Assembly (NCBI GenBank): GCA_001029715.1
Contig: CP011212.1
Coordinates: forward strand, 195,407-259,406
Direction: 5' to 3'
Source of the DNA: a candidate division TM6 bacterium GW2011_GWF2_28_16
Lineage (GTDB): Bacteria; Patescibacteriota; Microgenomatia; UBA1400; PJMF01
DNA length: 64,000 bases
Position numbers and translations under genes: made by a program. Shown piece by piece: positions 6,363 through 52,632 of the stretch. Each line of letters opens with the position of its first letter. Position 1 is the first letter of the stretch. The notes below the pieces were generated by a model. That model worked only from the letters and a program-made list of their open reading frames with translations, had not been told where the DNA came from and did not search any database.

Positions 6363-6408
6363 TCCCAACTTTTAAGTTAAGATAGAGACATAAAGAAAGT
6401 CTGCCACT

Positions 6409-6570
6409 AGACTTACAGCAAAATAAAAAAAGGTTCCTTAACTTATCTTTTACATATTTTAGTCTTTTCTTCTTCCTCAAGTAGACTAAGCTACTATTGT
6501 CATCAGAAGAAGACTAAAATATAGTAAAAGCTAATATTAATTAACTCATTTTTTATTTTGCTGTAAGTCT
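6409..6570. repeat. 162-bp nested palindromic element with 22-bp perfect terminal inverted repeats
   Basis: AGACTTACAGCAAAATAAAAAA at 6409-6430 is the exact reverse complement of 6549-6570. The interior is itself near-palindromic. Confidence 0.7.
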
Positions 6571-6572
6571 AT

Positions 6573-9780: not shown

Positions 9781-9879
9781 AAAAAGAAAGGAACGAATTT
9801 ATTTTTCGATGCATTGCGCCACCCGAGTGAACGTCTTCACTCGAGAGACGCTGAGGAGAAAAATATAATTCGTGAAATT
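9781..9879 (+). promoter_or_regulatory. conserved ~100-nt leader element (copy A) upstream of rnj, with hairpin 9824-9843
   Basis: Near-identical to 34759-34862 upstream of tuf. The hairpin CGAGTGAA-CGTC-TTCACTCG covaries with copy B. Confidence 0.6.
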
Positions 9880-11644: not shown

Positions 11645-13843
11645 ATGGCTAATTTTAAACGCAGCAAAAGAAAAAAACGCAAAGCAATTCGTCTTAAAAT
11701 GCGTAGCGACACTAGTTATTCAGTAGTGGCAGTTCTATTGATTTTGCTTGGTTTATTGGTCTTAATTTCATTTACCGGTCAAGGTCAATTGCTTATTTTC
11801 ATCAATGATATCCTGTCTTTAAAGTTTGGTTTATCAATGTTGTTTTTACCTTTTGTTTTGATTTCTGCAGGCTTAGTAATGCTACGTAGTAAACATGCTT
11901 GGTCAAAACCAACTATTTTACTTGGCACGATTTTACTAATGCTTGGTACCATGGGCGTTACTAAAAGTGGACAAGTAGGTTCAAGTCTTTTTGTTAATTT
12001 TGCCAGACTAATTACTGAATCTGGTTCCTATGCTTTTTTTAGCGCCATTGTTTTAATTGGTATTTTAATTTTGTCCCAATCTTCTTTATTGGAGCTGGTT
12101 GAATTACTTGGCAAATTATTTAAGAAGAGAGCCAAAGATAAAAAAGAAGCTAAAGATATTTTTGCTGATCAAGTCAGCGAAAAGGAAATCACTAAAGCCA
12201 AGGGTTTTTCTATTCCTAATTTTGGTTTTGGATTTAGTAAAGACAAAGGTCTTAAAAAAGGCTCTTCTTTTAATGAGGAAATTGAACAAGATAACAGTAG
12301 TGCTAAGGCAATTATTGAAGACGAGCTTAAAAAAGAAACCTCTTCTTCCAATCTTGATAATCAAGAAGCTCTTAACGCCTCTTCAGTGCCAATGATGTGG
12401 GATTATCCACCTTTATCCTTACTCTCACAAAAGTCTGGTGGCAAAGCCGACCGTGGAGATGTCAAAGGCAACGCAGCGATTATTGAAAACACTTTGGATT
12501 CTTTTGGTATTCAAGCCAAAGTGACTGAATATAATCCTGGTCCAGCAGTTACTCAATATGCGCTAGATATTAACAAAGGTACTCGTTTATCTAAGATTAC
12601 TGCTCTATCAACTGATTTAGCTTTAGCTTTATCTGCTCCAACTGGACAAATTCGTATCGAGGCGCCAATTCCAGGTCGTAATTTAGTTGGTGTTGAAGTG
12701 CCAAATCGTAGTGCTGAGTATGTCACTCTCAAAACCATGTTGTCATCTCCAGAGCTTAAAAAGCATAAATCTAAATTAGCCGTGGCTCTTGGCATAGATG
12801 TAGCTGGTCGTCCATCGATTGTTGATATTGCGGCGATGCCTCATTTATTAATCGCTGGTTCAACTGGTTCTGGTAAATCTGTTTGTATTAACTCTTTTAT
12901 GTGCTCAATTTTGTTTAGAGCTACGCCAGAAGAAGTTAAGTTTATTTTGGTTGATCCTAAGCGTGTCGAATTAACTGGCTACAATGACATTCCTCATTTA
13001 TTAACTCCAGTAATTGTTGAGCCAAATAAGGTTGTTTCTGCACTCAAGTGGGCCTGTCAAACTATGGACAAGCGCTACAAAATGTTGGCAGAAGTAGGTG
13101 TCAAAAATATTAATGAATATAATGAACTAGCTGGTTTGGCTTCCATGCCAAACATCGTGATTGTGATTGATGAGTTGGCTGATGTAATGCTCTTTGCGCC
13201 TTCAGAAGTTGAAGAGAGTGTGACGCGTATTGCTCAGATGGCTCGTGCCGTTGGTATCCATTTAGTTTTGGCTACTCAGCGTCCTTCTGTGGATGTCTTG
13301 ACCGGACTGATTAAAGCTAACGTACCAACTCGTATCGCTTTTAACGTGGCTTCGATGATGGACAGTCGTGTCATTTTGGATAGTCCAGGTGCAGAAAAAT
13401 TGCTTGGTCGTGGTGATATGCTTTTCCAAGCTCCAGACAAACCAAAGCCATCTCGTGTCCAGGGTACTTTTGTCAGTGTTCAAGAAACCAATAATTTGAT
13501 TAATTTCTTAAAATCCCAGGGTCAAAAACCTCATTATGAGGAAGAAATTACTACCAAGTATCAGTCTAGCAAAGTTACTGGGGGCAGTATGGGTTCTGAT
13601 GATGGTGGTGGATCAGATATTGATGATAAATGTGAGGCAGCGGCGCGGCTCTTTTTGACCGCCGATAAGGCTTCCTCCTCTTTGATTCAGCGTCGCATGT
13701 CTGTTGGCTATGCCCGCGCCGCTAGAATTCTAGATCAACTCTACGAACTCGGCATGGTTGGCCCTCCAGATGGCAGTAAGCCAAGAGAAGTCAACAACGG
13801 CAAAATTAGAGAGTTTTTGATGAGCAAAGAACAAGAAGGATAA
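11645..13843 (+). CDS. ftsK: DNA translocase FtsK/SpoIIIE
   Basis: N-terminal TM segments, Walker A GSTGSGKS, and a C-terminal gamma winged-helix (LIQRRMSVGYARAARILDQL). Confidence 0.85.
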   Translation: MANFKRSKRKKRKAIRLKMRSDTSYSVVAVLLILLGLLVLISFTGQGQLLIFINDILSLKFGLSMLFLPFVLISAGLVMLRSKHAWSKPTILLGTILLMLGTMGVTKSGQVGSSLFVNFARLITESGSYAFFSAIVLIGILILSQSSLLELVELLGKLFKKRAKDKKEAKDIFADQVSEKEITKAKGFSIPNFGFGFSKDKGLKKGSSFNEEIEQDNSSAKAIIEDELKKETSSSNLDNQEALNASSVPMMWDYPPLSLLSQKSGGKADRGDVKGNAAIIENTLDSFGIQAKVTEYNPGPAVTQYALDINKGTRLSKITALSTDLALALSAPTGQIRIEAPIPGRNLVGVEVPNRSAEYVTLKTMLSSPELKKHKSKLAVALGIDVAGRPSIVDIAAMPHLLIAGSTGSGKSVCINSFMCSILFRATPEEVKFILVDPKRVELTGYNDIPHLLTPVIVEPNKVVSALKWACQTMDKRYKMLAEVGVKNINEYNELAGLASMPNIVIVIDELADVMLFAPSEVEESVTRIAQMARAVGIHLVLATQRPSVDVLTGLIKANVPTRIAFNVASMMDSRVILDSPGAEKLLGRGDMLFQAPDKPKPSRVQGTFVSVQETNNLINFLKSQGQKPHYEEEITTKYQSSKVTGGSMGSDDGGGSDIDDKCEAAARLFLTADKASSSLIQRRMSVGYARAARILDQLYELGMVGPPDGSKPREVNNGKIREFLMSKEQEG

Positions 13844-13845
13844 AG

Positions 13846-14243
13846 TGGAGATGGCGGGTTATGAACCCGCGTCCGTATCCAAATGTTTAAATAGCTTCTA
13901 CAGATTTAGTTTGCTTTCGATTAAAGATCAATAAGTTGTACAAACAAACTTTTACTGACCTATCCGCGTTATGTCTTAGAACTTTTTGCAACGCGAGTTC
14001 AAAAAGTTAGCCAAGTGACTGAGTTTTCACTTACCTATCTGCATCACTAACACAAATAAATAAATGCCTAAATTAGCAATAAGCTAAAGCAGGAGCATTG
14101 AAACTGGCAACAAAATTGCTGACAGCAGTCTTTGCTTTTGAGATTATGTTATCGACATTTATTGTCCGGGCCTTTTTAATGTCTTTGGTCCAAAGACAAT
14201 CTGCGACTATCTAAAAGATGTTACGTCAAAGCAATACATCCCC
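13846..14243 (-). ncRNA. ssrA: tmRNA (SsrA)
   Basis: On the minus strand, the 5' GGGGATG pairs with the 3' CATCTCC to give G3:U70, and the discriminator is A. The T-arm is GCGGG-TTCATAA-CCCGC. An internal 44-codon stop-free frame ends ...PALAYC-TAA. Length is 398 nt. Confidence 0.7.
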
Positions 14244-16036: not shown

Positions 16037-16681
16037 ATGCAAACTCAGACAATTGGTGATTTGTTGCGCTCTGCTAGAGAGAAAAAACATTTTACCCTAG
16101 AAGATTTGGCCAAAGAAACCCATATTAAATTAGAGTATTTGCTTGCTTTAGAAGAAAATGATTTTGACGCTTTGCCGGCAGCAACTTTTGTCAAAGCTTA
16201 TATTCGTAATTACGCCAGACTTTTTGAACTTGATGAAAAACCTTTGTTTGCTATCTTGCGCCGAGATTTTGAAGAAAGCGTCAGAGGACAATTAATTCCC
16301 AGAGAATTTCTCTATCCACAATTAAAGAAAAAAACCCTTTGGTCGCCGGTACGTCTAGTTCTGTTTTCAGTGATTACAGTTTTTCTAGTCTTTTTTTCCT
16401 ATGCTGCTTGGCAGTGGTATCAACTAAGTCGTCCGCCAGCTTTGATGCTTTCAGCTCCACTAGAAAATGAAGAAGTTTCTTCAAGAGTAATTTTGAAAGG
16501 TGACACCGAGGTAGAAGCAATTTTAACGGTTAATTCTTTGCCAGTGGCTTTGCGGGAAGATGGTTCTTTTGAAACAGAGTTGTATTTACCTCAAGAAGGA
16601 GTGAACACAATTACCATTAAAGCCAGTGATAAAAATGGTAAAAGTAGTGTTTTACAAAGATCTGTCCGCGTTAAGTTTTGA
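16037..16681 (+). CDS. RodZ-like HTH membrane protein
   Basis: N-terminal XRE-type HTH (TIGDLLRSAREKKHFTLEDLAKETHIK), one TM segment, and a C-terminal domain. Confidence 0.6.
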   Translation: MQTQTIGDLLRSAREKKHFTLEDLAKETHIKLEYLLALEENDFDALPAATFVKAYIRNYARLFELDEKPLFAILRRDFEESVRGQLIPREFLYPQLKKKTLWSPVRLVLFSVITVFLVFFSYAAWQWYQLSRPPALMLSAPLENEEVSSRVILKGDTEVEAILTVNSLPVALREDGSFETELYLPQEGVNTITIKASDKNGKSSVLQRSVRVKF

Positions 16682-16710
16682 TAAAAATTTCAACTTATGT
16701 CACAATGGTC

Positions 16711-17015
16711 TTATGACAAATGAAATTCTTCCTATCGTTCTAGTTGTTTGCTTGGTAGTTTTGACAATTGTTTTGGTGGTTGTGGCGATTAATTTAATTG
16801 GTGTTTTAGTGGAGAGCAAAAAAGTGCTCAAAAAAGCCAATGCGACAATTGATACTACTCAAGAGAAAATTACTGGGATTCTTAATCCTTTTCATAGTCT
16901 AAGTTCTTTCGTAACTAATTTTACTGCTGGTTTAAAAGTTGCTGAAGGTTTTATGTCTTTTGCTAATAAAGACAAAAAAGATAAAGATAAGGATGATGAA
17001 AAAGACGGAGAATAA
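16711..17015 (+). CDS. small membrane protein with KD-rich tail
   Basis: ATG at 16711, a single TM segment, and a charged C-terminus. Overlaps the next ORF by 23 nt. Confidence 0.4.
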
Positions 17016-17337
17016 TTCCTTATTATTATTTGCTGGCGCCTTTAGTTTGGGCGCCATTTTTTCATATTTTGCTAGTCCAAGTGGCAGCAAAAAAAGACAA
17101 GAACTTGCCGAAAAATGGGAAGAAGCTAAAGAATACCTTTGGCAGCAAGGTTTAATCAAAGACAAAAACATTTCTTTTGAAGATTTTCGCAAAGAATATT
17201 TACAGAAATTAGCAAATTCTTTTACTGGTATGAAAGATGCTTTTGAAAGCAAAAGTATAGAAAAAGAATTGGCTCATTTAGCCAAACTCAAGCGTCGCCG
17301 CAACCGTAGCAAAAAGCCAAAGTTTAAAGGTATTTAA
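16993..17337 (+). CDS. YtxH-like small membrane/coiled-coil protein
   Basis: MMKKTENNSLLLFAGAFSLGAIF TM segment, then a coiled-coil and a basic tail. Confidence 0.4.
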   Translation: MMKKTENNSLLLFAGAFSLGAIFSYFASPSGSKKRQELAEKWEEAKEYLWQQGLIKDKNISFEDFRKEYLQKLANSFTGMKDAFESKSIEKELAHLAKLKRRRNRSKKPKFKGI

Positions 17338-17374
17338 TTATTAGCAAAGCAATTGATCGGGTATAATAAGCTTC

Positions 17375-19279
17375 ATGTCAGATTTATCTTTTGTTCGTCA
17401 ACAATATTTGAACTATTTTAAGAGTTTGGATCATAAGATTGTGCCTTCAGCTCCTCTGGTTCCTGAAAATGATCCAAGTACTTTATTCACTAGTGCTGGC
17501 ATGCAGTCGATGATCCCTTATTTTTTTGGTGCGGCTCATCCTGAGGGTAAAAGAGTTGCCAATTCGCAAAAATGTTTCAGAGCTGATGACATTGAAGAAG
17601 TTGGCGATAATCGTCACACTACTTTTTTTGAAATGTTAGGTAATTGGTCTTTTGGAGATTATTTCAAAAAAGAACAGATTACTTTTGTTTTTAATTTTTT
17701 AGTCAAAGAACTAAAACTTGACCCAAAAAAGCTTTATGTATCCTGTTTTTCTGGTAATAAAGAATTAGGAATTGAGCGTGATAATGAAGCCGCTGAGCTT
17801 TGGCAGGAACTTTTTCAGAGCGTTGGAGTAGAGGCTAAAATTATTGACAATCCAGAGGAAGCTGGTTTGCAAGATGGAAAAATTTATTTTTACGGTGAGA
17901 AAAAAAATTGGTGGTCACGTTCTGGTGTGCCGGTCAACATGCCAGTTGGTGAACCGGGTGGACCAGACAGTGAGATTTTTTATGATTTTGGTGAGCAAGA
18001 TAGTGATCTAGCCAGAGCAATGCACGCTGAGAATCCTTGTCACATTAATTGCGATTGTGGCAGATTTTTGGAAATTGGTAATTCTGTTTTTATGCAGTAT
18101 CAAAAAACCAATTCTGGTTTTGTGCCACTCGCTCAAGCAAATATTGATTTCGGTGGCGGTTTAGGAAGAATTTTAGCAGCTTATCAGAATCAGCCGGATG
18201 TTTTTAAAACAGACGCCTTTTTACCTTTGATTGAAAAAATCCAATCTTTTACAAGTTTTAGTTACGACGATCAAGATAAACAAAAATATTTCCGAGTTAT
18301 TGCTGACCACATGAAAGCAGCAGTCATGTTGATGTCTGATGGAGTTTTTCCCTCAAGTAAAGAGCAGGGATATGTTTTGCGTCGTCTACTGCGTCGTGCT
18401 TTGCGCCAAGCCGCTTATTTAGAGATCAAACAGGAAACTTTAGTAGAATTAGTGCCAAGCGTAGTTGAGATCTATGCAGATTTTTATCCACAGCTTAAAG
18501 AACAACAGGCAAAAATTAGCCAAGTTTTAGCTGATGAGCAAAAGAAATTCAGTAGAAGTTTAAGTAAAGGTTTAAAAGAGTTTGAAAAAATGCTGGCTCA
18601 AAAAAGCCTTTTTACGGCTGAAATTGCCTTTTATTTATACGAAAGTTTTGGTTTTCCTTTTGAGCTTTCTCTCGAAGAGGCAAAGAATCGATCGCTGCAA
18701 ATAGAAGAAAAAATCGAAGAAAAATATCAATCCAAAAAAACTTTTCATTCGCTTAACTCCAAACAAGGTAGTCAAGCTCAGTTCAAGAGTGGTTTGGCTG
18801 ATCAAGGAGAAATGACCACTAAGTATCACACCGTCACTCATTTACTTCATGCTGCTTTACGTCAAGTTCTTGGTGACAGCGTGGAGCAAAAAGGTTCCAA
18901 TATTACTGCCGAGCGTTTGCGTTTTGACTTTTCTCATCCAAAAGCTTTAACCGCAGTAGAAAAAGCCAATGTGGAGTCTTTAATTAATGAGTGGATCAAG
19001 GCTGATTTTGAAGTTGATAAGCAGATTATGCCAAAGAGTGAGGCTCTGAAAACTGGCGCTGTTGCTTTATTTATTGATAAATATCCAGATATAGTCAATG
19101 TTTATTCAATTGGTAAAAATCCATCAGGCAATAAAAAAGGCGAAGATTTCATCTCTCGCGAGCTTTGTTCTGGTCCACATGTCGAGAGAACTGGGGTTAT
19201 TGGAGAGATCACTCTGACCAAGGAAAAAGCGGTTGCCGATGGGATCAGAAGAATATACGCTCTTCAAAAAAGCGCTTAA
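17375..19279 (+). CDS. alaS: alanine--tRNA ligase, shortened form lacking C-Ala domain
   Basis: Class II catalytic core (FTSAGMQ, RADDIEEVG, WSFGDYF) and editing HxxxH (HTVTHLLH). Only 634 aa. Confidence 0.85.
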   Translation: MSDLSFVRQQYLNYFKSLDHKIVPSAPLVPENDPSTLFTSAGMQSMIPYFFGAAHPEGKRVANSQKCFRADDIEEVGDNRHTTFFEMLGNWSFGDYFKKEQITFVFNFLVKELKLDPKKLYVSCFSGNKELGIERDNEAAELWQELFQSVGVEAKIIDNPEEAGLQDGKIYFYGEKKNWWSRSGVPVNMPVGEPGGPDSEIFYDFGEQDSDLARAMHAENPCHINCDCGRFLEIGNSVFMQYQKTNSGFVPLAQANIDFGGGLGRILAAYQNQPDVFKTDAFLPLIEKIQSFTSFSYDDQDKQKYFRVIADHMKAAVMLMSDGVFPSSKEQGYVLRRLLRRALRQAAYLEIKQETLVELVPSVVEIYADFYPQLKEQQAKISQVLADEQKKFSRSLSKGLKEFEKMLAQKSLFTAEIAFYLYESFGFPFELSLEEAKNRSLQIEEKIEEKYQSKKTFHSLNSKQGSQAQFKSGLADQGEMTTKYHTVTHLLHAALRQVLGDSVEQKGSNITAERLRFDFSHPKALTAVEKANVESLINEWIKADFEVDKQIMPKSEALKTGAVALFIDKYPDIVNVYSIGKNPSGNKKGEDFISRELCSGPHVERTGVIGEITLTKEKAVADGIRRIYALQKSA

Positions 19280-19294
19280 TTTTGCTTTAATGGA

Positions 19295-19458
19295 ATAGAG
19301 TTCTGTACTTTAATACAGTCACGCTTCACTAAAATTGTTTGTTATTTAAATTAACAATCTTCTTTTCGCTCAGTGAAGTCGCTGTTTATTGAATAAGTGC
19401 CAACTCACGCTAATTAATCAGCTCCTTCAATGGACTGTATTAAAGTACAGAACTCTAT
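19295..19458. repeat. 164-bp structured element with 26-bp perfect terminal inverted repeats (copy 1)
   Basis: ATAGAGTTCTGTACTTTAATACAGTC at 19295-19320 is the exact reverse complement of 19433-19458. The core is ~80% identical to the reverse complement of 52114-52260. Confidence 0.7.
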
Positions 19459-19477: not shown

Positions 19478-21697
19478 ATGCCCGACCAAGAGAAACATTA
19501 TTTTCTTACTGTTTTGTTGACTGATAAGTTTTTGCAATCATCTTTGGTTTCAAATAATGGTCAAGGTATTCAGATCAAAGAATTTTCAGAAATTAAGGCT
19601 TATTTCGATCGTAAAGATTTACTAGAGCAACTAGATAAAAGTTTGCAGCAGCTGGGTCCAGATTCTCAAGATGTAGTGGAAACTGTTTTTGCTTTTGATA
19701 ACACTTGGCTAGAAGATAAAGATCTAAGCGATACAAAGAAGCCTATCGTTAAGGAAATTTCTGAAGAATTAAGCTTAGATGCCATTGGACAATTTAGTAT
19801 TTCGGAAGCTATGGCTGAAGCTCGTTTAATTGGAGATGAGGGTGATTCTTGTCTTTTACTGATTTTCAAAGAAGATAGTTTTGATCTTATTTTTCTCAAA
19901 CATGGACAATTCTTAGATTTAATCACAGTTGGTCGCTCTGGAAATATAGTAAATGACTTCAATGAAGTTTTAGCCAGAGCATCTAAACATTTAGGTCAAG
20001 AAGGCAAATACTTTCCAAATAAAATTTTAATGACTTCTATTGCCCTTAAGCAAAAAGAGTTGGAGTCTTTACACGATCAATTAGTCAAAGAAGATTGGAC
20101 AAATAATCCTGGTTTCACTCAAGCTCCAAATATTGTTGTTTTGGAGGCTGATTATATGATCAAATCAGTAAGTTTGAGTGCTGGGAAAATTTTCACTAAA
20201 GAAAATTTTCTAGCTAAAATGCCAAACGCTGGCGAGCAAAGAATTGATACATCAAGGCAAGAGATAAAGCCAGAGCCAGAAAAAGAAATTGAGCCAGATT
20301 TATCATTAGAACAGGTTGAGGAATTGAAACCAGTTGGACCAACTATCGAGCCAATTAAAAATCAAATAAATGAAGATTATGCAGTTGAAAAGCCAAGCGC
20401 TAGTAGTTTTGGGATTAAATTCGATCAGAATTATTTTTCTAAAGACAAAGAGAAGGCTGTAATGCAAGATCAAGATTTCCAAAGAATCGAAGAAACAAAA
20501 AATCAGTCTAAAAAGAAACGTTCTCCTTTGGCTAGATTTTATCTAGCTCACAAGAAAATGATTTTACTTGGCTTTGCTGCCGGTTTATTAGCTGTTCTAT
20601 TAATTTTTACTATTTTTTCTTTTTTCTTTTCTAAGGTTAAAGTTATTTTAACTCCTGAACAAACCTTACTCCAAAAAAATGTTGCCATTGTTCTGGATCC
20701 GAATATTGAAGATTCTGATTTTAGTAAAGCACTTTTAAAAGCTTCTTTAGAAGATAAAGAGATTAGCGGTCAAGATGTTACTGCCACTACTGGTATTGGT
20801 TTGGTAGGTGATAAAGCAAAAGGTAAAGTTGCTATTTATAATAAAACTTCTGAAGAAACTGAACTAAATAGTGGAACGATTATTAGTAGTGAAGGAATTA
20901 AATTTTTACTTGATGAGACAGTTAAGGTTCCTGCTGCTACCGAAAAAGATGGTGGTTCTGGTGTAGATTACGGCAAAATTGAAGTAGCGGTTACAGCCAA
21001 TGATATTGGCTCAGAAGCTAATCTCAATAAAGATACCAAGTTTCGCGTGGCTGATTACTTTGATGATAAGTTTTCTGCTACTGCGACCGACACTTTCTCT
21101 GGTGGTTCTAGTCGAGAAGTTAGAGTTGTAGCAGAAGTTGATCAAAGTCGTTTGCTTGCTAGTTTGAGTGAAAAATTAGTAATCGAAGCAAGTAAAGAAC
21201 TTGAAGAAGAATCTAAAGATGGCGTCCATTTAGTTCCCACTAGTAAGACTACTGTAACAAAGAGCGATTTTTCTGCCAAAGTTGGAGATGAAACAGAGTC
21301 ATTGAGTCTGGATCTCAGCTTGGAAGTTGAAGCAGTCAAATATCTTTCTTCAGATCTTAAGCAATTAGCATTGGCGATTCTTAAAGAAGATTTGCCAGAT
21401 GGTTATGCTTTTATCGACCAAGATCCATCTTTATTAAGTGATAAAGCCCAAGTGGCATCAGGATCAAGTAAGATTAAATTAAATGCTGACTTAAGTGCTA
21501 AAGCTGTGGCTAGTTTAAAATTAGACGAGCTAAAAAAAGAAGTTTTAGGTCAGCAGTGGTCTGAAGTAATTAAGAACTTAGAAGATAAAAGTGAGATTAA
21601 GCAGGTTCAGGTAATTTACAATCCGCCTTTTTTGAATGGCATTTTACGTAAGTTGCCAAGTGATCAGTCCAGAATTACCGTAGAACTGAGTAAGTAA
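19478..21697 (+). CDS. large bitopic membrane protein, function unknown, adjacent to sortase
   Basis: 739 aa with a single central TM (ILLGFAAGLLAVLLIFTIFSFFF) separating two roughly 350-aa domains. Confidence 0.5.
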   Translation: MPDQEKHYFLTVLLTDKFLQSSLVSNNGQGIQIKEFSEIKAYFDRKDLLEQLDKSLQQLGPDSQDVVETVFAFDNTWLEDKDLSDTKKPIVKEISEELSLDAIGQFSISEAMAEARLIGDEGDSCLLLIFKEDSFDLIFLKHGQFLDLITVGRSGNIVNDFNEVLARASKHLGQEGKYFPNKILMTSIALKQKELESLHDQLVKEDWTNNPGFTQAPNIVVLEADYMIKSVSLSAGKIFTKENFLAKMPNAGEQRIDTSRQEIKPEPEKEIEPDLSLEQVEELKPVGPTIEPIKNQINEDYAVEKPSASSFGIKFDQNYFSKDKEKAVMQDQDFQRIEETKNQSKKKRSPLARFYLAHKKMILLGFAAGLLAVLLIFTIFSFFFSKVKVILTPEQTLLQKNVAIVLDPNIEDSDFSKALLKASLEDKEISGQDVTATTGIGLVGDKAKGKVAIYNKTSEETELNSGTIISSEGIKFLLDETVKVPAATEKDGGSGVDYGKIEVAVTANDIGSEANLNKDTKFRVADYFDDKFSATATDTFSGGSSREVRVVAEVDQSRLLASLSEKLVIEASKELEEESKDGVHLVPTSKTTVTKSDFSAKVGDETESLSLDLSLEVEAVKYLSSDLKQLALAILKEDLPDGYAFIDQDPSLLSDKAQVASGSSKIKLNADLSAKAVASLKLDELKKEVLGQQWSEVIKNLEDKSEIKQVQVIYNPPFLNGILRKLPSDQSRITVELSK

Positions 21698-34758: not shown

Positions 34759-34862
34759 AAAAAGAAAGGAGTGAATTTATTTTTAGATGCATTTGATCAC
34801 CTGAGTAAACGTCTTTACTCAAGAGATCACTGAGGATAAAAATAAGATTCACGACATACATT
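34759..34862 (+). promoter_or_regulatory. conserved ~100-nt leader element (copy B) upstream of tuf, with hairpin 34802-34821
   Basis: Aligns base-for-base with 9781-9879. The hairpin TGAGTAAA-CGTC-TTTACTCA carries two compensatory base-pair swaps relative to copy A. Confidence 0.6.
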
Positions 34863-51482: not shown

Positions 51483-51998
51483 ATGGCAATAAGAATGAAC
51501 AAGAAAAACGCTAAGGCTAAAAAAGTAATTAAAAAAATAATTGCTCCAAAAGTTGTTAGTAAGAAAAAAACAGTTGAAGCCGAAAAAAACTTCAAGATCC
51601 CAAAAAGTAAATATTTTGAAGCAATGGGGCGTCGCAAAGTTGCCAGTGCTAGAGTTCGTATTTATGAAGGTCAAGGTGATTTTGTAGTTAACAATCTATT
51701 GGTGTCTGAATATTTTAAAAATGTTAGAAATGCTCCAGCTATTTACATGAAGCCTTTTGAGTTAACCGGTACTAAGGGAAAATTCTCAGTTACTGTGAAA
51801 ATTTCTGGATCAGGACTAGATGCTCAATTAGATGCTTTGTTAAATGGTGTAGCTAAAGCTTTAGTTGCTTTCAATCCAGATTTCCGTACTTTCTTAAAGC
51901 CAGCTGGTTTATTAACCAGAGATGACAGAATGAAAGAAACTAGAAAAATGGGCATGGGTGGTAAAGCTAGAAGAAAGCGTCAATCTCCAAAACGTTAA
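51483..51998 (+). CDS. rpsI: 30S ribosomal protein S9 with N-terminal basic extension
   Basis: GRRK.A.ARV and a C-terminal ...RR.QSPKR. Confidence 0.93.
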   Translation: MAIRMNKKNAKAKKVIKKIIAPKVVSKKKTVEAEKNFKIPKSKYFEAMGRRKVASARVRIYEGQGDFVVNNLLVSEYFKNVRNAPAIYMKPFELTGTKGKFSVTVKISGSGLDAQLDALLNGVAKALVAFNPDFRTFLKPAGLLTRDDRMKETRKMGMGGKARRKRQSPKR

Positions 51999-52053
51999 AC
52001 TTATCTCGTCCTCCGTCTCCACTCCGGACATTCCCTCGCAAAGCTCGGTCAAA

Positions 52054-52080
52054 AAAACCCGCTCTTTTGAGCGGGTTTTT
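52054..52080 (+). terminator. rho-independent terminator after rpsI
   Basis: AACCCGCTC-TTTT-GAGCGGGTT hairpin followed by TTTTT. Confidence 0.8.
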
Positions 52081-52113
52081 AAATTCATTCCATTAAGAAT
52101 TGCGATATTTTTA

Positions 52114-52260
52114 GCACTTAAACTCATGTCCATTGAAGGAGCTGATCTATAAAACATAAATTAGCACTTACGTAATGGAACAGCGACTTCACTGAGTGAG
52201 ACAAAGATTGATGCTTAAAAAAGCAAACAATTTTAGTCGAACGTGACTGAGTTTAAGTGC
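52114..52260. repeat. 147-bp structured element (copy 2), homologous to 19295-19458 in reverse orientation
   Basis: Terminal stem GCACTTAAACTCA/TGAGTTTAAGTGC differs from copy 1. The core (GTCCATTGAAGGAGCTGAT, AACAGCGACTTCACTGAG, CAAACAATTTTAGT) is conserved. Confidence 0.7.
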
Positions 52261-52269
52261 AAAAATATA

Positions 52270-52545
52270 TTACCAAACTTCTTTTTTAAGAGGTTTGCCA
52301 ACACGGAAGTTAATGACCTTATGTCCTTTAACTAATTGTCTCTTAGCTTTATCGCCAAAAGGTTCGACGTGCTTATCATTGACTTTATTTACATAAAAAG
52401 TACCAAAGCCGGATAAAACGACTTTATCGCCTTTTTTCAAACTGCGAATGATTTCTTCAAACAATGACTCAACTGCTTCTGAGGAAGCTTTCTTGGTCAA
52501 ATGAGCTTTTTTGGCGACGACATTAATCAAATCTGATTTTGTCAT
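52270..52545 (-). CDS. hup: HU-family DNA-binding protein
   Basis: MTKSDLI..VA and GFGTF...R arm motifs. Confidence 0.9.
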   Translation of the reverse strand: MTKSDLINVVAKKAHLTKKASSEAVESLFEEIIRSLKKGDKVVLSGFGTFYVNKVNDKHVEPFGDKAKRQLVKGHKVINFRVGKPLKKEVW

Positions 52546-52632
52546 GATGGCCTTTCTATAATAATTGGTTCAAAAGAACCTGTTAAATACTATCCCAAGT
52601 GTACTATTTTGATTTAGTAAGTCAAGAAGTAA

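What the first reader, a model, noticed from the sequence alone, without database searches (positions are those of the whole stretch)
52114..52260. Second copy of the structured element, between the rpsI terminator and hup
The closing stem has drifted while the interior has held, which supports a functional structure. This copy lies in a convergent intergenic region. Its terminal stem GCACTTAAACTCA/TGAGTTTAAGTGC (13 bp plus a bulge) replaces the 26-bp stem of copy 1. Core blocks GTCCATTGAAGGAGCTGAT, AACAGCGACTTCACTGAG and CAAACAATTTTAGT..GAA.CGTGACTG are retained. In the minus-strand orientation it would form the 3' UTR of hup.
Basis: seen in the sequence. Interest (0 to 1): 0.68.

Follow-up and report, generated by a model that had tools for sequence, protein, structure and literature searches.

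The report
Structured intergenic RNA element, CPR bacteria
The flagged stretch is a real copy of a previously undescribed ~160-nt folded element (a long closing stem around a three-armed core), found sporadically between genes of tiny groundwater "candidate phyla" bacteria; here it lies in the tail of the HU (hup) messenger RNA, and its function is unknown.

Summary
Copy 2 spans window 52105-52268. Its closing stem has about 24 pairs, not 13. It lies between the hup stop codon and the terminator shared with rpsI. Copy 1 is at 19295-19458 in the opposite orientation. No Rfam family matches either copy. Exact-pattern scans and synteny look-ups found 10 more intact relatives and several decayed ones in Woesebacteria/Pacebacteria/Parcubacteria-type MAGs, at 11 different intergenic sites.

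All intact copies share:
- a 21-27-bp, almost purely Watson-Crick closing stem whose sequence drifts with full compensation;
- a three-way junction;
- two arms, each with an invariant 2x2 internal loop.

Covariation exceeds every shuffle and slide control. It also occurs in the inner arms.

The element is present or absent between strains that are 98% identical, and it decays by deletion. It is therefore dispensable, yet its core is conserved in situ.

The strand co-directional with hup (window minus strand) is the likelier RNA strand, at about 70:30. My best reading is a co-transcribed RNA module in which the long stem is a double-strand-specific processing or stabilising site and the core is a binding platform. 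Rivals are a DNA-level mobile palindrome, a reverse-strand RNA, and a mimic of the 16S 3' end.

The parts
52105..52268 (-). Element A, copy 2 (the finding), whole unit with full closing stem, 164 nt
   Evidence: Covariance-model hit 52110-52263 minus strand, 152 bits, E 5e-34. Stem extension seen in the sequence and in the fold.
52245..52268 (-). P1 5' arm in RNA sense (AUAUUUUU GCACUUAAACUCA GUC)
   Evidence: Pairs with 52105-52130. About 24 pairs with two 1-nt bulges.
52105..52130 (-). P1 3' arm in RNA sense (GAC A UGAGUUUAAGUGC U AAAAAUAU)
   Evidence: P1 covaries across 12 homologues.
52196..52242 (-). P3 arm (5' branch in RNA sense): an irregular helix of about 17 pairs. Invariant 2x2 loop at 52198-99 / 52239-40.
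   Evidence: Folds. Pairs 22-70, 23-69 and 26-66 covary.
52181..52194 (-). P2 base, 5' strand in RNA sense (CAGUGAAGUCGCUG). Invariant UC at 52185-86.
   Evidence: Pairs with 52131-52144. 100% paired in 13 sequences. One compensatory A-U to C-G change in L041.
52131..52144 (-). P2 base, 3' strand in RNA sense (CAGCUCCUUCAAUG). Invariant UC at 52139-40.
52145..52180 (-). P2 distal hairpin, variable in sequence
   Evidence: A hairpin is present in nearly all homologues. It is more stable and richer in G-U on this strand: summed -92 vs -75 kcal/mol, 18 vs 8 G-U.
52270..52545 (-). hup (HU, 91 aa). Its stop codon lies 1 nt upstream of the element.
   Evidence: ORF. Pfam Bac_DNA_binding on the identical protein.
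52558..52586 (-). Promoter-like site for hup (TTAACA-17-TATTAT)
   Evidence: A consensus match only.
52051..52080 (.). Bidirectional intrinsic terminator shared by rpsI and hup: A7, CCCGCTC, TTTT, GAGCGGG, T5
   Evidence: Sequence. Terminator parts of Rfam leader models match on both strands.
19295..19458 (+). Element A, copy 1, 164 nt with a 26-bp perfect stem. Lies between the alaS stop (19279) and the ORF starting at 19478.
   Evidence: Covariance-model hit 19302-19452 plus strand, 160 bits..

Best explanation
Copy 2 belongs to an undescribed family of ~150-165-nt structured elements in Microgenomates/Parcubacteria-type CPR bacteria.

Architecture:
- a 21-27-bp closing stem (P1);
- P1 stacks directly onto arm P2, with no unpaired bases on the 3' strand;
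- a second arm (P3) branches from the 5' strand, giving a three-way junction;
- each arm carries an invariant 2x2 internal loop, UC/UC on the gene-directional strand.

I infer that it acts as RNA on the strand co-directional with hup (window minus strand). It would be transcribed as the hup 3' UTR, between the stop codon and the terminator. In most other genomes it would be the 5' UTR or intercistronic spacer of unrelated genes.

Proposed mechanism (inferred, not shown):
- The two-turn, nearly perfect double-stranded stem is a site for a double-strand-specific RNase (RNase III type), or a barrier to exonucleases.
- It therefore sets the ends or the stability of the neighbouring mRNA and releases or protects the ~115-nt core.
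- The core's invariant non-Watson-Crick loops and junction are a binding platform for an unidentified protein or ligand.

The element is accessory. It is gained, lost and eroded by deletion between close strains. Where it stays intact, the core is held constant in place.
For: A real family, and new to the libraries:
- 12 intact homologues at 11 distinct loci, scoring 131-162 bits.
- No Rfam family matches even at E<=10.
- No paper in the library contains the core sequences.

Structure:
- 94% of cells are paired; 17-18 pairs change on both sides; 0 of 500 shuffles reach this; slid controls give 31-47%.
- Inner-arm covariation: pair 23-69 is C-G:6 / U-A:6, pair 22-70 is G-C / A-U / G-U, and the P2 pair 77-131 is A-U:12 / C-G:1.
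- GUC/GAC flips to GAC/GUC in the L041/L053 type.
- Stem length is held at 21-27 pairs although the sequence drifts.

Transcription context of copy 2: promoter-like site, hup, element and terminator lie on one strand.

Strand:
- G-U vs A-C in the annotated pairs of the whole model (P1 included) is 10 vs 4.
- The P2 distal hairpin sums to -92 vs -75 kcal/mol, with 18 vs 8 G-U pairs.
- GC skew is positive across the whole window, yet copies 1 and 2 lie on opposite strands. Orientation therefore follows the genes and not replication.
- 8 of 11 sites have a co-directional gene starting 38-67 nt downstream.

In-situ constraint:
- Orthologous copies in the dnaX-ybaB spacer (L011, L036) keep all core blocks, while their stem arms diverged with compensation.
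- Window copy 2 and L008 are 95% identical, and their differences include compensating changes in the P2 distal stem.

Dispensability: deletion derivatives at hup (L002) and at dnaX-ybaB (L035, L052-L055), and an empty alaS site (L027, L032).
Against: - There is no expression data. RNase III cleavage and any binding partner are pure inference.
- P1 is almost free of wobble pairs and is strand-symmetric: 290 WC / 6 G-U forward, 298 / 7 reverse. That fits a DNA-level palindrome as well as, or better than, an RNA stem.
- On the chosen strand the invariant loops are tandem U-C/C-U plus an A-C opposition, which are destabilising. On the other strand they would be tandem sheared G-A pairs plus a G-U wobble, which are classic RNA motifs.
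- The whole-element MFE is lower for the reverse strand in 10 of 12 sequences.
- The orientation rule is not absolute. L019 lies antisense within an operon. Only about 5-8 sites are truly informative.
- The invariance of the P2 blocks is inflated, because my scans required those blocks.
- Neighbouring genes have nothing in common, so no specific regulatory logic emerges.
Confidence: 0.45

Rival explanations
1. DNA-level mobile or self-maintaining palindrome (MITE-like or foldback element). The arms are terminal inverted repeats, or a cruciform/hairpin in DNA. The conserved core is what a trans-acting mobility protein recognises. Any RNA is a by-product.
For: - Sporadic distribution at 11 unrelated intergenic sites, with presence/absence between strains 98% identical.
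- P1 is nearly perfect, Watson-Crick only and strand-symmetric, as expected for inverted repeats homogenised at the DNA level.
- The element erodes by deletion like junk DNA.
- Other long-stem intergenic elements exist in the same genome.
Against: - The arms are not conserved between copies, while the interior is. This is the reverse of MITEs.
- No target-site duplication or conserved termini were seen.
- Copy number is 1-2 per genome: one pattern match in a 751-kb contig and two in the window.
- Copies within one genome are only 76-79% alike, so there has been no recent burst.
- No transposase, integrase or RT lies nearby.
- Short inner helices covary, and the inner hairpins show wobble asymmetry.
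- Old orthologous copies keep arm complementarity in place, which transposase recognition cannot explain.
Confidence: 0.2
2. The functional RNA is the opposite strand, which is the strand the reader wrote out (window plus strand for copy 2). It would be an independent antisense small RNA whose two arms carry tandem sheared G-A pairs and a G-U wobble.
For: - On that strand the four invariant 2-nt loops read 5'-GA/5'-GA, and the invariant A-C opposition becomes G-U.
- The MFE is lower in 10 of 12 sequences.
- In L019 this strand is the one co-directional with the surrounding operon.
Against: - It would need its own promoter and terminator inside 20-45-nt spacers, and none is evident.
- For copy 2 it lies just after the rpsI terminator.
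- Variable-position wobble counts and the energies of the P2 distal hairpin favour the other strand.
- It is antisense to the neighbouring genes at most sites.
Confidence: 0.15
3. Mimic or derivative of the 3' end of pre-16S rRNA. The blocks appear in 16S order:
- GUCAC (E. coli 1405-1409);
- a hairpin;
- GUGAAGUCG (1489-1497, the decoding site);
- a hairpin of about 35 nt where helix 45 would sit;
- RAUCAGCUCCUU (compare 1530-1541, GAUCACCUCCUU).
All of this is enclosed by a long stem resembling the RNase III processing stem of rRNA operons. The element would titrate or recruit a factor that handles the 16S 3' end.
For: - The E. coli 16S end was verified at 100% identity.
- Block positions were mapped.
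- Gapped local alignment of four cores to it scores 32-43, against 22 +/- 3.5 for shuffles. 27, 1, 0 and 15 of 2000 shuffles reach the observed scores. The reverse complement scores at background.
- ybeY, the 16S 3'-end maturation nuclease, is inferred from my reading of a translated ORF (not run against any family library) to lie in the same operon in L011.
Against: - The resemblance was found post hoc, and a k-mer chain statistic was not significant.
- The decoding-site fold is 10-17 kcal/mol worse than the native fold.
- Covariation supports the fold in which the two 16S-like strands pair with each other.
- The helix-45 position has no conserved GGAA loop.
- L041, the one relative found without sequence bias, has UUGCAGUCG and CUCCUGCA. 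It keeps the pairing but loses the 16S-like words.
- The organism's own rRNA operon could not be inspected.
Confidence: 0.1
4. Decaying neutral remnant. It would be an old insertion with no present function, whose arm complementarity is kept by intramolecular template switching.
For: Repeated independent deletions. Strand-symmetric perfect arms. No common gene context.
Against: - Blocks of 14-19 nt, including unpaired junction and loop bases, are invariant across lineages whose HU and YbaB proteins are only about 70-90% identical. The variable hairpins between them are saturated.
- Compensatory changes occur in short inner helices.
Confidence: 0.1

Closest known systems
Correia repeat-enclosed elements (CREE/NEMIS) of Neisseria and similar small intergenic palindromic repeats (ERIC/IRU, BOX, RUP)
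   Same: - 100-160-bp units made of inverted repeats around a core.
- Located in short intergenic spacers and co-transcribed with neighbouring genes.
- Differ in presence between strains.
- For CREE, the RNA hairpin binds RNase III and is cut or protected by it, which alters expression of adjacent genes (PMC2649163; reviews PMC2229807, PMC10969869).
   Different: - CREE has conserved 26-bp terminal repeats, a TA target duplication, an IHF site and hundreds of copies per genome.
- Here the arms drift freely with compensation and the interior is the conserved part.
- The copy number is 1-2 and no duplication is seen.
- The interior is a three-way junction with covarying helices.
Orphan structured ncRNA motifs found by comparative genomics (Breaker/Weinberg-type candidates in Rfam)
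   Same: A conserved secondary structure supported by covariation, conserved junction and loop bases, variable hairpin tips, and unknown function.
   Different: - It matches none of the 4227 Rfam models.
- The closing stem is 21-27 bp and almost wobble-free.
- It has no consistent gene association.
- It shows strain-level gain and loss.
RNase III processing stems of rRNA operons and rRNA intervening sequences (my own knowledge)
   Same: A long double-stranded stem formed by distant flanks that encloses a structured RNA. Intervening sequences are sporadic between strains and are excised by RNase III. The core carries short words identical to the 16S 3' end.
   Different: It lies among protein genes and not in an rRNA operon. 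The similarity is limited to three short blocks. The native fold pairs those blocks with each other.
REP/BIME elements (my own knowledge)
   Same: Intergenic, co-transcribed hairpins that stabilise upstream mRNA.
   Different: REPs are 20-40 nt, highly repeated and mobilised by RAYT transposases. They have no three-way core.

Membership tests
Any curated Rfam family | Score at or near the family's gathering threshold | tested here: not met
   Gathering search of the whole window found only tmRNA and two tRNAs. Searches at E<=10 on both copies returned only terminator-containing leaders and miRNA noise.
MITE (e.g. Correia/CREE) | Terminal inverted repeats conserved in sequence among copies | tested here: not met
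   The outer arms are unrelated between loci. Only the inner ~12 nt share a loose consensus.
MITE (e.g. Correia/CREE) | Direct target-site duplication flanking the element | tested here: inconclusive
   No consistent flanking repeat was seen at 12 copies or in the filled vs empty alaS site. The spacers evolve too fast to reconstruct the junctions.
MITE (e.g. Correia/CREE) | Many near-identical copies per genome | tested here: not met
   Two copies in 64 kb, with cores 76% alike. One pattern match in a 751-kb contig.
MITE (e.g. Correia/CREE) | Insertion polymorphism between related strains | tested here: met
   Differences at hup, alaS and dnaX-ybaB between strains 98% identical. At least the hup and dnaX cases are deletions.
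MITE (e.g. Correia/CREE) | Hairpin RNA cleaved or bound by RNase III | not testable with these tools
   Only the stem length (21-27 bp) is compatible.
Riboswitch / gene-specific cis-regulatory leader | Consistent association with one gene family or pathway | tested here: not met
   Downstream genes as I read them from the ORF translations (only ybaB was checked against a family library, Pfam YbaB_DNA_bd; the 739-aa ORF had no Pfam hit): ybaB, a 739-aa unknown ORF, prfB, a recombinase, a membrane protein, an adenosyltransferase, holA, a 572-aa ORF. Two copies have none.
Riboswitch / gene-specific cis-regulatory leader | Short, switchable P1 with an expression platform | tested here: not met
   P1 is 21-27 bp at -25 to -41 kcal/mol. 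Eleven of 12 copies have no U-tract after it.
16S rRNA 3' minor domain (mimic or fragment) | Both strands of the decoding site and the anti-SD tail present in the right order | tested here: met
   GUCAC, GUGAAGUCG and RAUCAGCUCCUU are present in 12 of 12 pattern-found copies. They are not kept in L041.
16S rRNA 3' minor domain (mimic or fragment) | Folds into the helix-44 decoding loop and carries the helix-45 GGAA loop | tested here: not met
   The forced decoding-site fold costs 10-17 kcal/mol. The hairpin at the helix-45 position is variable. No SSU model hit.
Retron ncRNA (msr-msd) | Reverse transcriptase gene adjacent to the inverted-repeat-flanked RNA | tested here: not met
   None of the called neighbours within 6-10 kb of either window copy has an RT domain. 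No downstream ORF at the other loci reads as an RT from its translation (not run against a family library).
Housekeeping small RNA (6S, SRP RNA) | One conserved gene per genome, retained in related species | tested here: not met
   Absent or eroded in the dnaX-ybaB and hup spacers of close relatives. The apical parts are variable and the junction is conserved, which is the opposite of SRP RNA.

The most novel reading that the evidence does not exclude
The element is a new class of accessory, horizontally spreading structured RNA specific to CPR bacteria. It would be a 'mini pre-16S': an RNase III-type stem enclosing a core that copies the decoding-site strands and the anti-Shine-Dalgarno tail. 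It would hijack or titrate the machinery that matures or attacks the 16S 3' end (YbeY/Era-type factors or 16S-directed toxins). Alternatively, the three-way core with its two identical 2x2 loops could be a new ribozyme or a ligand- or protein-binding fold.
Probability: 0.1. Interest if true: 0.85.

Novelty: new variant of a known kind. Interest (0 to 1): 0.55.

Why it matters
CPR bacteria have tiny genomes with very short spacers, and almost nothing is known about their non-coding RNA. This element is about 160 nt and has deeply conserved junction and loop bases, so it is held by selection in some lineages. Sister strains nevertheless discard it. That makes it either an accessory RNA function or a new kind of selfish structured element.

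It comes with a ready-made natural experiment. Intact, eroded and empty alleles exist at three loci among strains 98% identical, from a well-sampled aquifer. Strand, processing sites and effects on neighbouring genes (HU, AlaRS, YbaB) could therefore be read directly from existing metatranscriptomes.

The same genomes carry at least two further families of long-stem spacer elements. This hints at a general, unexplored layer of mRNA processing or genome dynamics in these organisms.

Tried and rejected
1. **Flank-copy origin of the stem.** I considered that the 3' arm is created as an inverted copy of the target flank. The 'empty' hup site of L002 and the dnaX site of L035 still carry 5'-arm sequence, which prompted the idea. 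It is rejected. Outgroups without the element lack that sequence. A graded deletion series exists at dnaX-ybaB. These sites are therefore deletions.
2. **Housekeeping RNA gene at dnaX-ybaB** (by analogy with ffs next to dnaX). Rejected, because most relatives lack the element there.
3. **Recent intragenomic duplication or cut-and-paste.** Rejected. Copy 1 is only 76-79% like copy 2 or the dnaX copy. Its alaS flank is a divergent recombination tract.
4. **Promoter belonging to the element.** The TGnTATAAT upstream of several copies pre-exists in empty sites and contains the upstream stop codon. It belongs to the host spacer.
5. **Small ORFs on either strand.** Not conserved (sequence inspection).
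6. **Hammerhead or hairpin-ribozyme cores, K-turn, 6S bubble, SRP domain IV, boxA.** The motifs are absent or in paired, covarying positions, and there is no Rfam hit.
7. **k-mer chain statistic for 16S similarity.** Uninformative and replaced by gapped alignment.
8. **Scan of viral contigs.** No hit.
9. **Look-ups of seven YbaB and HU homologues**. No further intact copies, only remnants.
10. **Search for the organism's rRNA operon among held loci.** None found.

Full report
**1. The observation**

The window is low-GC (about 36%) and carries rpoA-rplQ-rplM-rpsI on the plus strand. The rpsI stop is at 51998. A canonical bidirectional terminator follows at 52051-52080. hup (HU, 91 aa) lies on the minus strand at 52270-52545.

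- a 13-bp perfect stem (52114-52126 with 52248-52260);
- a 1-nt bulge, then GTC/GAC;
- three core blocks shared exactly with a second site at about 19300-19450 in the opposite orientation.

The two long blocks occur exactly twice each, where 0.01-0.04 matches are expected by chance.

The stem of copy 2 is longer than described. It continues with ATATTTTT/AAAAATAT after a second bulge. The unit therefore spans 52105-52268 (164 nt, about 24 pairs) and ends 1 nt from the hup stop codon. Copy 1 is also 164 nt (19295-19458) with a 26-bp perfect stem. It lies between alaS and a 739-aa ORF.

Both copies fold far better than shuffles (z -5 to -8). A covariance model finds no third copy in the window.

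**2. Not a known family**

Rfam 15 at gathering thresholds finds only a tmRNA and two tRNAs in the window. At E<=10 the two copies attract only the terminator parts of leader models and plant miRNA noise. The core sequences occur in no paper of the library. Searches for CPR RNA motifs found nothing relevant.

**3. Relatives**

The genome scan used a 19-mer from the core; the metagenome scan used a gapped pattern of the two P2 strands. Together they returned 10 further loci plus chance hits in GC-rich coding DNA. Look-ups of identical and homologous HU, RuvX and YbaB proteins brought in the orthologous spacers of sister strains and related species.

Source names for the HU and YbaB relatives are Woesebacteria, Pacebacteria and 'Patescibacteria group'. 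One element-bearing MAG (L014) is labelled Parcubacteria.

In all there are 12 intact elements at 11 different intergenic sites (131-162 bits), two end-truncated ones (L012, L041) and several eroded ones.

**4. Structure**

All intact copies share one architecture:
- P1 has 21-27 pairs.
- P1 runs without a break on its 3' strand into P2 (CA.UGAAG[UC]GCUG with CAGC[UC]CUUC.A.UG).
- About 50 nt branch off the 5' strand as P3 (GY[UC]GAC.AA.AUUGUU with AACAAU.UU.GUC[UC]RC).
- The tips of both arms are variable.

On the model-based alignment:
- 94% of cells are paired.
- 17-18 of 42 pairs change on both sides.
- 0 of 500 column shuffles reach any of the five measures.
- Sliding the partners by 1-3 columns drops pairing to 31-47%.

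Most of the signal is in P1, but the inner helices also covary:
- Pair 23-69 is C-G in six sequences and U-A in six.
- Pair 22-70 is G-C, A-U or G-U.
- The P2 pair 77-131 is A-U in twelve sequences and C-G in L041.
- The GUC/GAC extension of P1 is GAC/GUC in the L041/L053 type.

One caveat applies. Both scans demanded P2 or junction words, so the apparent invariance of those blocks is partly ascertainment. L041 was found by synteny alone and does vary there, with compensation.

**5. Which strand**

Evidence for the strand co-directional with hup:
- Copy 2 sits inside the hup transcription unit: promoter-like site 52586-52558, then the gene, the element and the terminator.
- Copy 1 is on the other DNA strand but is again co-directional with its neighbours. 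GC skew is positive along the whole window, so orientation tracks transcription and not replication.
- At 8 of 11 sites a co-directional gene starts 38-67 nt downstream.
- At variable positions of the annotated pairs (all helices, P1 included), G-U outnumbers A-C by 10 to 4.
- The P2 distal hairpin is more stable and richer in wobble pairs on this strand: -92 vs -75 kcal/mol summed, 18 vs 8 G-U.

Evidence against:
- L019 lies antisense within an operon, and only 5-8 sites are really informative.
- The four invariant 2-nt loops are U-C/C-U on this strand but tandem G-A on the other. An invariant A-C opposition would be G-U on the other strand. The whole-element MFE is lower for the other strand in 10 of 12 sequences.
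- P1 shows no asymmetry at all and almost no wobble: 6 or 7 G-U in about 296 pairs on either strand.

I put the gene-directional strand at about 70:30.

**6. Dynamics**

Strains with identical HU, RuvX and YbaB proteins and about 98% DNA identity differ at all three loci.
- The window type has copies at alaS and hup but not at dnaX-ybaB.
- The 751-kb genome (GCA_018817305.1) has only the dnaX-ybaB copy.
- A third strain has only the hup copy.

The 'empty' hup site keeps the 5' arm, and related species lack that sequence. It is therefore a deletion.

The dnaX-ybaB spacer shows a full erosion series:
- intact (L011, L036);
- core deleted with both arms kept (L053, L055);
- 5' arm only (L054, L052);
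- a few outer bases only (L035).

The alaS site has clean 26-nt empty alleles. Its left flank is only 93.8% identical between filled and empty strains, against 98.6% on the right. This points to import of a divergent allele by recombination and not to recent transposition. Consistent with that, copies within one genome are no closer (76-79%) than copies from different lineages, whereas true orthologues are 95% alike.

The element is therefore old, dispensable and often lost. Where it persists, its core words and its arm complementarity are maintained in place.

**7. What it is not**

- Not a gene-specific leader or riboswitch: the neighbours are unrelated and P1 is far too long and stable.
- Not a terminator: only L019 has a U-tract.
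- Not a retron: no RT nearby.
- Not a housekeeping RNA: absent from close relatives.
- Not a typical MITE: the arms are variable and the core conserved, there are 1-2 diverged copies per genome, and no duplication or transposase was seen.
- The extended -10-like TGnTATAAT upstream of several copies belongs to the host spacer and contains the upstream stop codon.

**8. A lead: resemblance to the 16S 3' end**

On the gene-directional strand the conserved words match E. coli 16S in 16S order:
- GUCAC equals positions 1405-1409.
- GUGAAGUCG equals positions 1489-1497.
- RAUCAGCUCCUU is close to positions 1530-1541.
- A hairpin of about 35 nt sits where helix 45 would be.
- A long enclosing stem recalls the rRNA processing stem.

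I verified the E. coli sequence. Gapped alignment scores are 32-43 against 22 +/- 3.5 for shuffles, with 27, 1, 0 and 15 of 2000 shuffles reaching the observed scores. The reverse complement scores at background.

Against the idea:
- It was noticed post hoc, and a cruder statistic was null.
- The decoding-site fold costs 10-17 kcal/mol.
- Covariation supports the fold in which the two 16S-like strands pair with each other.
- L041 keeps the pairing but not the words.

I keep it as a low-probability (about 0.1) but interesting reading.

**9. Most likely mechanism**

What is shown: a conserved, covarying three-way fold; its position inside transcription units; a stem length held at two helical turns; strain-level loss.

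What is inferred: the element works as RNA within the mRNA. The stem serves as a double-strand-specific processing site or exonuclease barrier, by analogy with Correia elements (PMC2649163), REP hairpins and rRNA processing stems. The core, with its twin 2x2 loops and fixed junction, binds a factor yet to be found.

I give this 0.45. The rivals are a DNA-level mobile or self-correcting palindrome (0.2), a reverse-strand RNA (0.15), a 16S-end mimic (0.1) and a neutral remnant (0.1).

**10. Verdict**

The element is a new family that sits between small palindromic intergenic repeats and orphan structured RNAs. It is of moderate interest, with cheap decisive tests available in existing metatranscriptomes.

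Noticed in passing
window 9781-9848 and 34759-34826; also L035:1085-1200 and L041:120-215: A second family of structured spacer elements ('element B'). It is an ~85-nt irregular hairpin beginning with AAAGAAAGGA, and the two window copies are 84% alike. It lies in the 5' UTRs of an RNase J-like gene, tuf and (in sister contigs) ybaB. In L041 it follows element A in tandem. It folds at z -4.4 and -5.3 and has no Rfam match.
   Followed up: partly
window 6408-6571: A third long-stem spacer element. A perfect 23-bp stem encloses 118 nt that contain a second ~20-bp inverted repeat. It lies between two plus-strand genes and ends 2 nt before the next ATG. Rfam returns only miRNA-type noise.
   Followed up: partly
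L053:905-975, L055, L054, L052, L035 (dnaX-ybaB spacers): A graded series of deletion remnants of element A in related species: both arms without the core, the 5' arm only, and a few outer bases only. The core-less hairpin in L053/L055 still has 22 of 24 complementary positions.
   Followed up: yes
window ~16600-19290 vs L027: The alaS side of copy 1 is 93.8% identical between strain types, while the other side is 98.6% identical. This indicates a recombination boundary at the spacer.
   Followed up: partly
window 13843-14243 (minus strand): A tmRNA gene (Rfam 89 bits) with a long insertion in the tag-reading-frame region relative to the model.
   Followed up: no
L011, L012, L013, L018 record titles: MAGs carrying the element are labelled 'uncultured Pseudomonadales' in their records. 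However, some HU relatives in the protein database carry the same label alongside Woesebacteria/Pacebacteria/Patescibacteria names. The label is probably a taxonomy error.
   Followed up: no
L013, ~1.6 kb upstream of the element (locus 1230-2840): A stretch of about 1.6 kb with no stop-free frame longer than 100 codons (table 11) and no Rfam hit. It could be a pseudogene, an alternative code or another non-coding feature.
   Followed up: no
window 52092-52101 and 19285-19294: The 10-mer TTAATGGAAT (minus-strand sense at copy 2) flanks both copies, but on opposite sides of the element. It resembles the core's own CAAUGGAC end. It pre-exists in empty alaS sites (TTTAATGGAC). Possibly chance.
   Followed up: partly
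L019:4643-4665 (3' of the element, RNA sense): This is the only copy whose 3' arm is followed by a U6 tract. It is also the only copy lying antisense within an operon (between a 387-aa gene and obg). It may be an independent transcription unit there.
   Followed up: no
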